DNA of 64,000 nucleotides from Octopus vulgaris (lineage: Eukaryota): positions 125,984,001-126,048,000 of the forward strand of contig OX597819.1 of assembly GCA_951406725.2 (NCBI GenBank). The letters run 5' to 3'. This document shows, in pieces, positions 60,153 to 62,825 of the stretch. The notes below the pieces were generated by a model. The model worked only from the letters and a program-made list of their open reading frames with translations, was not told the origin of the DNA and ran no database searches. Numbering within the stretch: the stretch's first letter is position 1; the number at the start of each line of letters is the position of its first letter. The position numbers and the translations under genes were made by a program.

Positions 60153-60577
60153 TTTGGGACACCCTGTATACACACACACAGATACATACACACACACAAA
60201 CACACACACACACAAACACACACACACACACACAAACATATATAAAATGGAGTACGTGCATGTTGCATATAAGATTAAATTTGCAAATATGTATGTATTT
60301 ATGTATGTATTTGCGTATTTATAGAGAGAAAGATTGAATAAATGACGAGGAAAAAAGAACGAGGGAAAAAGAGAGGTGATGCGAGCGGCGGGGCAGCAAG
60401 TATGCGTTAGTGAAGTGGAGTTCGAATGGATTTCATCGTAAAGGTGTATCCTACTAGACAGGTGAGGATTTCTGTACTAGTGTCACACATACACATGCAC
60501 ACCTACAAGCATACACACGTGCACGCATTGATAACACATACCTATGTAAGTATACACACGTGTGTCAAGCTTCAGTG

Positions 60578-61168
60578 AACACATCTGGCCAAATTCTTCG
60601 CATTCCACGTCCTCACCTCTTTCCTCCTGACACAACAAACGTGTAATACACCGTCTGTCTGTCAGTCAGCAAGTATGTTGTGCACACACGCACATACACA
60701 CGCACTCGGACACACACATGCCTACCTGCATGCATACACACATCCACATGTGTGAGTGCTGTACCACTTGCGAAATATGTATTTGTATGCGTAGGGATGA
60801 GCGCGCGCTTGTATGCGTTTGTCTTTGTAATATTTATATTGGATTTATCAATCATTTTAAAGCCTTGTTATCAAATTCCACCGAAGTCAAAATTGTTTTT
60901 ATCCCTTCGGAGTCGATAGAGTAAAGTACAGTACAGTAAAGTAAAGTAAAGTACAGTAAAGTAAAGGACTAATACTTTCCCCAAATTTCCAGGATGGAAT
61001 TTATGTTGGAAGCAATTATAATTAAAATAATTATTATCATTATTGTTTTATTGTCTTTACACAGTTTCTAACGCAGGAGATGTCCTACGGTGTCAACTGT
61101 TCACTACCAGTGAACTTAGGTAAAACCCCTTAAGGACGTGGAATGCGAAGAATTTGGCCAGATGTGTT
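60578..61168. repeat. Exact 36-bp inverted repeat pair (60578-60613 and 61133-61168)
   Basis: AACACATCTGGCCAAATTCTTCGCATTCCACGTCCT and its exact reverse complement, with unrelated flanks. Confidence 0.92.
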
Positions 61169-61272
61169 TTCGAGCACCTTCGGAGTATCCGTGCGGTTCT
61201 AAGCAGTGCTGTTTTCTGCAAGTCCCCTACCCTTATTGCAGTCCCTATTTGTTCCATGTGCCTCTCAAGATT
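61053..61272 (-). mobile_element. 5'-truncated Dong/R4-like 3' end in (TAA)n
   Basis: Minus strand NLERHMEQIGTAIRVGDLQKTALLRTARILR is homologous to LQEVQKIVLTGTSHVLRR of the full element; 3' UTR hairpin GTTCACTGGTAGTGAAC; TTA repeats on both sides. Confidence 0.82.
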
Positions 61273-61451
61273 TTATTATTATTATTATTATTATTATTAT
61301 TATTATTATTATTATTATTATCATCATCATCATCATCATCATCGTCGTCGTCGTCGTCGTCGTCGTCGTCGTTGTTATTATTATTATTATTATTATTATT
61401 ATTATTATTATTATTATTATTATTATTATTATTATTATTATTATTATATAG

Positions 61452-61665
61452 CGCAGTGAGTTGGCAGAATCGTTAGCATGCCGGGCAAAATGCTTAGCAG
61501 CATTTCGTCCGTCTTCACGTTCTGACTTCAAATTCTACCGAGGTCGGGCTTTACCTTTCATCCTTTCAGAGTCGATAAATTAATTACCAGTTGCGTACTG
61601 TGGTCGATATAATCGATTGACCCCCTCCCATCAAATTTCACGCATTGTGCCTATTGTAGAGAGGA
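61452..61665 (+). mobile_element. SINE family A (short-tail variant)
   Basis: Family A head and core in (TTA)n. Confidence 0.85.
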
Positions 61666-61679
61666 TTATTATTATTTTC

Positions 61680-62140
61680 ATTGAGAGAGCAGTACATGCC
61701 ATCAAAGTGACACTGGGGGGAAATATACGAAGCCCAGAATACCCAAAATGATTATACAATTCTTGCAGGTGGGGCTCAGTTAGAATTTTCTTTAGGTCGA
61801 GTAGCCTATCTCGCTCAAAAAGTCCCTGAATAAGGGTTGTTTAAGGATGTTGAACAAAACACCCATGTTTCCAGAGGTGAATTATTCAAACCCCAAAGAA
61901 TCCCTCTCAACACATGGCTATGATGCTGCCCCACTACTTCTGCTCGTGATCAGAGATGCACATATCGTCAACCACTACGGGATATACTTAACTGGTTATG
62001 GTCAAACAACTGACAAACAAATCTGTGGTATTCAGTAGAATATTTGTTGTAGCCCATCTTTTATACCAAGACGAAACAAGGTACATGATAATACTTCCAA
62101 TCAGTTAAGATCACAAGCCATGAGAGCCACTGCCTAGTAT
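61680..62140. repeat. Dispersed repeat flanked by (TTA)n, possibly a LINE 3' end
   Basis: Homologous to 41385-41770; identity not resolved. Confidence 0.65.
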
Positions 62141-62239
62141 TGTTGTTGTTGTTATTATTATTATTATTATTATTATTATTATTATTATTATTATTATTAT
62201 TATTATTATTATTATTATTATTATTATCATTATTATTTA

Positions 62240-62434
62240 GGGCGGTGAGCTGGCAGAATCGTTAGCACGCTGGGCAAAATGCTTAGTTGCATTTCGTACG
62301 TCTTTACGTTCTGAGTTCATATTCCGCCGAGGTTGACTTCGCTTTTCCTCCTTTCGGAGTCGATAGAATAAGTAGCAGTTGAGGACTGAGGTTGATGTAA
62401 TCGATTCATCCCCTCCCCCAAATTTAAAAGCCTT
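62240..62434 (+). mobile_element. SINE family A (short-tail variant), 3' end cut off
   Basis: Ends AAATTTAAAAGCCTT, lacking the GTGCCTAT... tail seen at 5512 and 61647. Confidence 0.85.
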
Positions 62435-62825
62435 CAATTTAAGAGAAAACGAATTTACTTGTATCCCCTACATCATCACAATTACTACTGGAAGAGTACA
62501 GATGTGAGTTGGTGGATTCGAAATTAGATCTAATAAAGATAAAACTATACACTGTAATACATTTAATGTGATATGTTATACAAATTCTCGCATACAGATA
62601 GCTACCAACATAAGGAAATTAGTAAAAATAAAGGTAGACTTTCCGACTAACTATTTACGAAAGATACTTAAAAAAATTATACACGCACTTACAAACAAAC
62701 TATAAAAGTAAACAGCAACAGTTTGCGATATGGTTAAAAAAAGACAGATTTAAGATGCAAAGTTGCGATAGTAAGTGGAGTTCGAATGGATTTCATCGTA
62801 AAGGTGTATCCTACTAGACAGGAGT

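What the first reader, a model, noticed from the sequence alone, without database searches (positions are those of the whole stretch)
60413..62822. Nested exact repeats: a 50-bp direct pair enclosing a 36-bp inverted pair (excisable plus invertible cassette geometry)
Seen: element A (50 bp) is identical at 60413-60462 and 62773-62822. Element B (36 bp) at 60578-60613 has an exact reverse complement at 61133-61168. The order is A > B > ... < B' ... A >. Both are complex sequences that match no repeat family I could see in this window, have unrelated flanks, and show zero divergence while surrounding repeats are diverged. The left copies lie 115 bp apart, both begin within AGTGAA, and their right ends overlap mutually complementary motifs (AGGTGAGGA 60460-60468; TCCTCACCT 60610-60618). 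An 11-bp direct repeat CAGCAAGTATG (60394 and 60667) brackets both. The right copies fall in retroelement remnants: B' at the ORF end of a Dong fragment, A' at the breakpoint of a PLE RT. Inference: either recombination-site architecture (A/A excising ~2.4 kb, B/B' inverting ~0.52 kb), or a short two-guide locus matching two transposon sites, or paired templated-insertion repair scars. No recombinase is encoded in the window.
Basis: partly seen in the sequence, partly recalled or inferred. Interest (0 to 1): 0.85.

Follow-up and report, generated by a model that had tools for sequence, protein, structure and literature searches.

The report
Two DNA-repair patches, one neighbouring donor
Two short pieces of a single-copy stretch of DNA each occur a second time 0.6 and 2.4 kb away, inserted into dead jumping-gene fragments, most likely as separate patches left by DNA-break repair, an ordinary kind of scar rather than a recombination switch.

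Summary
The repeats are real, and each occurs only twice in the 2.8-Gb genome search. They are not paired sites. B' is a 33-34 bp insertion in a retroelement remnant; 11 of 11 paralogs aligned show the empty site. A' adds 45-47 bp to a reverse-transcriptase remnant relative to 3 of 4 paralogs. The left copies lie in a continuous stretch also held by a more distant organism, so they are the donors. A' is old (organisms A-D); B' seems young (contig break in 1 of 4 runs). 'Zero divergence' is wrong for A: the match is 65 columns at 95%. Comparable local pairs occur about once per 59 kb (27 in 1.6 Mb), and close pairs are not significantly enriched (2 seen, 0.6-0.7 expected). This fits repair-mediated duplication (PMC2671141). 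The scan reported this class before on other DNA, including this genome. One lead remains: A and B sit in low-substitution blocks and are weakly complementary to each other, so the donor may be a structured or transcribed element that is copied preferentially.

The parts
60300..60700 (.). Single-copy donor region, continuous in a more distant organism
   Evidence: 4 matches (itself, A', B', one 44-bp simple-repeat-like hit on C8); run X12 spans it in one 477-nt contig, 25 other letters and 16 gap letters.
60398..60462 (+). Donor A (exact core 60413-60462)
   Evidence: None of the 16 listed X12 substitutions falls in 60387-60467.
60578..60613 (+). Donor B
   Evidence: One listed X12 substitution, at 60608.
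61133..61168 (-). Acceptor B': inverted copy of B; net insertion 33-34 bp, the last 2 letters shared with the target
   Evidence: gap at 61133/4-61165/6 in 11 of 11 paralogs.
61015..61274 (-).
   Evidence: 1034 candidates, 40 scored; 11 of 16 residues match the end of another local ORF; no Pfam hit.
62760..62822 (+). Acceptor A': direct copy of A; net gain 45-47 bp over paralogs
   Evidence: anchor distance 138 bp here against 91, 91 and 93 in 3 of 4 paralogs (the fourth lacked the anchor); L006 matches both flanks colinearly.
62451..63142 (-). Decayed reverse-transcriptase remnant (Penelope-like; name recalled), interrupted by A' at the NFLDVTL-type motif
   Evidence: 31 of 75 residues identical to the 376-aa ORF of L053, similarity ending at A'; no Pfam hit for that ORF.
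60406..60433 (+). Left arm of a weak inverted repeat between A and B
   Evidence: 21 of 28 columns match the reverse complement of 60591-60616; P 0.029 (shuffles), 0.019 (genome control), tested after it was noticed.
60591..60616 (-). Right arm of the weak inverted repeat between A and B
60394..60404 (+). 11-bp direct repeat, first copy (second at 60667-60677); probably chance, not a target-site duplication
   Evidence: 6% of random windows; the bracketed segment is continuous with both flanks in X12.
60460..60468 (+). AG|GTGAG motif at the end of A, complementary to 60610-60618; each reads as a splice-donor consensus on its own strand (consensus recalled; use untested)
   Evidence: X12 differs at 60468 and 60614.

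Best explanation
A' and B' are insertions into two dead retroelement fragments, and they were most likely made by two separate germline DNA-break repairs that each copied a short stretch of the same nearby single-copy region. Inferred steps: a break in the remnant; a broken end anneals through a few matching letters to DNA 0.6 or 2.4 kb away; 34 to about 60 letters are synthesised; the end releases and rejoins the other side through 2-3 matching letters with a few letters lost (synthesis-dependent strand annealing or polymerase-theta-type end joining; these cannot be told apart here). A' was copied in direct orientation before organisms A-D split. B' was copied in inverted orientation, likely recently. 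The nested layout follows from both acceptors lying to the right of the donor. No function is implied.
For: Shown: empty site for B' in 11 of 11 paralogs; 45-47 bp gain at A' against 3 of 4 paralogs and colinear flanks in L006; two copies each genome-wide; donor region continuous in organism E; a 579-nt X8 contig carries A with 1 difference and runs on unlike the donor on both sides, which I read as A' in organism D; no poly-A tail or target-site duplication at either acceptor; 2 shared letters at one B' junction. Contigs break at B only in X1; X2 runs through B with 0 differences, X4 and X5 also run through. Base rate: 27 clean local pairs in 16 blocks of 100 kb, 17 direct and 10 inverted, 194-5211 bp apart. 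The features match those in PMC2671141.
Against: No contig was seen that reads across the orthologous empty site of A' or B'; the empty sites come from paralogs. The A' paralogs are only 68-84% alike, so its junction letters are inferred. The young age of B' rests on missing contig breaks, which graph cleaning could also cause (X1 itself shows only one of the two expected breaks), and X4 and X5 have unlisted differences that could lie in B. Three local pairs fall within 5 kb here (57762-62822), denser than the 1 per 59 kb average. The 27 control pairs were judged unique only within the 1.86-Mb sample.
Confidence: 0.88

Rival explanations
1. Same repair origin, but the donor is special: a conserved, transcribed or hairpin-forming element that is copied into nearby breaks more often than average DNA, possibly through an RNA or R-loop template.
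For: A and most of B lie in two blocks without listed substitutions to organism E (81 and 61 bp; P 0.007 for both gaps, after the fact, 16 of 25 substitutions listed). A and B are weakly complementary (21 of 28 columns, P 0.02-0.03; RNA duplex on the + strand -22.8 against -14.3 +/- 3.0 kcal/mol, P 0.008). The two X12 changes in the 9-letter motifs would each leave a G-U pair. Templated insertions from transcribed loci are reported in human cells (10.1101/2022.09.30.509517, abstract only).
Against: The whole segment folds no better than shuffles (z 0.09; z -0.8 to -1.2 for the A-B span). One substitution in 86 donor letters is not significant (P 0.057). Close pairs in the control blocks are not enriched (2 seen, 0.56-0.73 expected, P 0.10-0.16). 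No Pfam hit to a host gene among 150 of 498 candidate ORFs near the donor. All the positive tests were chosen after seeing the data.
Confidence: 0.12
2. Recombination-site architecture: A/A' excise 2.4 kb and B/B' invert 0.52 kb under an enzyme encoded elsewhere.
For: The geometry is as described; A' has been kept nearly identical to A across organisms A-D.
Against: The right copies interrupt decayed retroelements; they appear to differ in age; A' has a later substitution and gaps; the enclosed DNA is SINE and microsatellite debris; no recombinase hit among 150 of 498 ORFs scanned; contigs on both inner sides of the A pair exist in 4 of 4 runs.
Confidence: 0.02
3. A short two-guide RNA locus that targets two transposon sites.
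For: Both left copies lie within 200 bp and both right copies lie in retroelements.
Against: The matched letters are absent from 11 of 11 and 3 of 4 paralogs, so they are not transposon sequence; the donor is present in organism E as one unbroken contig; 0 of 7 Rfam matches reach a gathering score.
Confidence: 0.01
4. The left segment 60405-60677 is itself a composite insertion built from A' and B', with the 11-bp repeat as target-site duplication.
For: An 11-bp direct repeat brackets both left copies.
Against: The segment is continuous with both flanks in organism E; paralogs show that the right copies are the inserted ones; such 11-mers occur in 6% of random windows.
Confidence: 0.02

Closest known systems
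Repair-mediated duplications (RDs), Pace, Sen, Batzer and Feschotte 2009, PMC2671141 (read: abstract, results on identification and breakpoints, section 10, six passages; supplements not read)
   Same: An insertion interrupts a transposable element; the inserted sequence occurs at one other place; the donor is within 5 kb; junctions show microhomology or small deletion, with no poly-A tail or target-site duplication; events are lineage-specific or polymorphic; 82 of their 824 donors held conserved elements.
   Different: Here the animal is an invertebrate (octopus by earlier scan notes and recalled SINE sequence); B' (33-34 bp) and the net gain at A' (45-47 bp) are under their 50-bp search cut-off; two acceptors share one 215-bp donor region.
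'Doublets' of Thomas et al. (known here only from the passage in PMC2671141; paper not read)
   Same: Short, identical or nearly identical local duplicates under 100 bp, thought to arise by imperfect break repair.
   Different: Here donor and acceptor can be told apart, through paralogs and other organisms.
Templated insertions at breaks in human cells (10.1101/2022.09.30.509517, abstract only; PMC8421209, search listing only)
   Same: Inserts are copied from DNA near the break.
   Different: Those are induced or somatic events; their link to transcription of the donor is untested at this locus.

Membership tests
Repair-mediated duplication (PMC2671141) | Insertion interrupts a transposable element whose two sides are contiguous in other copies | tested here: met
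   B': 11 of 11 paralogs. A': 3 of 4 paralogs 45-47 bp shorter; colinear flanks in L006.
Repair-mediated duplication (PMC2671141) | [quoted passage not shown] | tested here: met
   2 of 2 candidates for each; search sensitivity is limited.
Repair-mediated duplication (PMC2671141) | Donor more than 50 bp and less than 5 kb from the acceptor | tested here: met
   2360 and 555 bp start to start.
Repair-mediated duplication (PMC2671141) | Junctions with microhomology, deletion or filler; no poly-A tail | tested here: met
   B': 2 shared letters at one end, about 1 letter lost. A': a few shared letters at both ends inferred from diverged paralogs. No poly-A.
Repair-mediated duplication (PMC2671141) | Insertion of at least 50 bp (their search cut-off, not a mechanistic limit) | tested here: not met
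   B' 33-34 bp; A' about 63 bp copied, 45-47 bp net.
Repair-mediated duplication (PMC2671141) | Empty orthologous site in an outgroup | tested here: inconclusive
   Contigs run unbroken through B in X2, X4, X5 and through A and B in X12, but no contig across either orthologous acceptor site was identified.
Site-specific recombination cassette (excision or inversion) | Cognate recombinase encoded nearby | tested here: not met
   0 recombinase hits in 150 of 498 candidate ORFs, those ranked highest by length and GC within about 66 kb; the rest and other loci not scanned.
Site-specific recombination cassette (excision or inversion) | Rearranged molecules exist | tested here: inconclusive
   None among the 15 joints shown (669 not shown); only contigs were available, which drop rare variants.
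Guide or small-RNA locus | Guides match the targeted transposon families | tested here: not met
   The matched letters are absent from the aligned paralogs.
Guide or small-RNA locus | Small RNAs are produced | not testable with these tools
   No small-RNA raw reads were offered.

The most novel reading that the evidence does not exclude
A conserved, weakly self-pairing non-coding element (A and B are its two arms) is a preferred template for germline break repair and has donated sequence to nearby breaks at least twice, at different times, possibly as RNA. Repair donors in this genome would then mark structured or transcribed elements.
Probability: 0.12. Interest if true: 0.5.

Novelty: new member of a known kind. 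Interest (0 to 1): 0.16.

Why it matters
As it stands it is a clean example of a known mutational process in an invertebrate. The rough rate found here (about one local pair per 59 kb, some 47,000 genome-wide if extrapolated) suggests that such scars are common in this genome. My two searches that aimed at this listed no paper on them in octopus or other invertebrates under those terms: none of the 15 listed held a repair term, and one search returned only PMC2671141. That is a limited check. If donors proved to be enriched in conserved or transcribed elements, the scars would give a genome-wide record of which DNA or RNA serves as repair template in the germline.

Tried and rejected
Transcription: no RNA holder listed, and the two RNA-guessed runs X15 and X17 gave no cover over A or B; this blank is no evidence either way. 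No second A-bearing contig was listed for X12; absence of A' in organism E is not proven by that. Exon reading of A (ATG...CAG|GTGAG, 12 codons): no test possible; no host-gene Pfam hit in 150 of 498 ORFs, only a weak reverse transcriptase and a weak transposase hit. Rfam: 7 matches at E<=1, none at gathering score, mostly simple-repeat microRNA models. Sevenfold depth over the donor in X5 (143-197 against 20-23): its contigs break at the only HindIII site of 60200-63300 (60567), so I read it as a library effect, not copy number; the 2-3-fold excess in X2 is unexplained. A C24 control pair first looked like the same nested layout, but its inverted pair is part of a 125-bp, 86% repeat-related match and was not counted. 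In one search, 64 pairs passed the flank filter and 9 were two-copy; one (C9) was a repeat family. In some searches local matches gave 37 candidates, 3 were dropped for similar flanks, leaving 27 in control blocks and 7 in the home region. Control blocks were picked at round coordinates, not by a random draw. Pfam did not name either retroelement. No earlier scan note lay at this place or resembled the donor.

Full report
Observation. The two exact pairs are at the stated coordinates. The window lies on contig C6 of a 2.8-Gb genome; earlier scan notes on this genome call it an octopus, which agrees with the SINE sequence as I recall it. Searches with 71-bp queries around A and B each returned 2 of 2 candidates, the known copies. 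The A match is longer than reported: 60398-60462 against 62760-62822, 65 columns, 95.4%.

B' is an insertion. The DNA around B' belongs to an abundant family (1034 candidates, 40 scored). All 11 paralogs that were fetched lack 33-34 bp at 61133-61166 and are otherwise colinear. The 36-bp exact match is therefore about 34 inserted letters plus 2 letters shared by donor and target. There is no poly-A tail and no target-site duplication.

A' is an insertion. It lies in a decayed reverse-transcriptase frame on the minus strand, 31 of 75 residues identical to a 376-aa ORF in L053, with the similarity ending at A'. Paralog L006 matches both flanks in order, 29 bp apart there and 74 bp apart here. 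The distance between two anchors is 138 bp here and 91, 91 and 93 bp in 3 of 4 paralogs; the fourth lacked one anchor. The paralogs are 68-84% alike, so the junction letters are inferred: a few letters at each end resemble both donor and target.

Direction and age. In run X12 (organism E, share 0.19) one contig spans 60300-60700 with 25 other letters and 16 gap letters, so the left region is old and continuous. In X2, X4 and X5 (organisms A, B, C) contigs end at 60442/3 and 62802/3 and start at 60433 and 62793, as expected if both A copies are present; X1 has contigs leaving A at both places. In X8 (organism D) a 579-nt contig holds A with one difference and continues unlike the donor on both sides, which I read as A'. 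Position 62768 has the donor letter in X4 and X5. For B, only X1 shows a break (60613/60584); X2 runs through B with no difference, and X4 and X5 run through too. B' is thus probably young, with the caveat that graph cleaning can remove such breaks and that no contig across the orthologous empty site was seen.

How unusual is the layout? In 16 control blocks of 100 kb, 27 local pairs of 30-400 bp at 90% or more identity, with unrelated flanks and single-copy within the sample, remained after filtering (37 candidates from 295 local matches, 3 dropped, 7 in the home region). That is one per 59 kb, 17 direct and 10 inverted, 194-5211 bp apart. Two cases had copies of different pairs within 300 bp, against 0.56-0.73 expected (P 0.10-0.16). 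Extrapolated, some 170-320 donor pairs this close would arise by chance genome-wide (rough, since the controls were not checked genome-wide or for direction). The 11-bp repeat is found at similar strength in 6% of random windows.

Mechanism. Shown: two insertions into dead retroelements, each matching one nearby single-copy stretch. Inferred: two separate germline break repairs with short templated synthesis and rejoining at microhomology. This is the repair-mediated duplication of PMC2671141, which was found by the same sign, a transposon interrupted by a copy of nearby DNA; 824 of 1136 human cases had the donor within 5 kb. The inserts here fall under that paper's 50-bp cut-off, and the orthologous empty sites remain unseen.

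What is left. The donor may not be neutral DNA. None of the 16 listed substitutions to organism E falls in 60387-60467 or 60547-60607 (P 0.007 for both gaps; P 0.057 for the 86 donor letters). The 5' half of A and the 3' half of B are weakly complementary (21 of 28 columns, P 0.02-0.03; RNA duplex P 0.008 on the + strand and 0.30 on the - strand), although the whole segment folds like shuffled sequence (z 0.09). A third, older local pair lies at 57762-57956 and 59160-59355. These tests were chosen after seeing the data, and Pace et al. already found conserved elements in 82 of 824 donors, so I give a special donor 12%.

Verdict. Real repeats, an ordinary origin: two repair-mediated duplications that share a donor neighbourhood. 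The scan has reported this class before on other DNA; those notes were not used as evidence. Supplements of the papers were not read. Interest 0.16.

Noticed in passing
window 60406-60433 and 60591-60616: A and B are imperfect inverted repeats of each other (21 of 28 columns); either an old hairpin, an older local copy, or chance.
   Followed up: partly
window 57762-57956 and 59160-59355: A third local inverted pair, 197 columns at 93%, while other genomic copies match at 71-87% over shorter spans; probably an older local duplication.
   Followed up: partly
window 60387-60467 and 60547-60607: Two blocks with no listed substitution to organism E between more variable flanks; a possible conserved non-coding element or small exon.
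   Followed up: partly
window 60423-60468 (+) and 60610-60619 (-): An ATG-started frame of 12 codons ends at a splice-donor-like CAG|GTGAG; a second donor-like motif lies on the opposite strand and stays donor-like in organism E.
   Followed up: no
G000:C13:20044461-20045901 (L101): Two interleaved local pairs in a control block: an inverted 120-bp pair and a direct 59-bp pair, with copies 44 bp apart.
   Followed up: no
L031:73-2379 (+), about 24 kb right of the finding: A 769-aa open frame with a weak reverse-transcriptase match; probably a younger retroelement.
   Followed up: no
window 60300-61076: Contig depth is 2-3 times that of 62393-63187 in run X2 and 7 times in X5; the X5 excess centres on a HindIII site, the X2 excess is unexplained.
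   Followed up: partly
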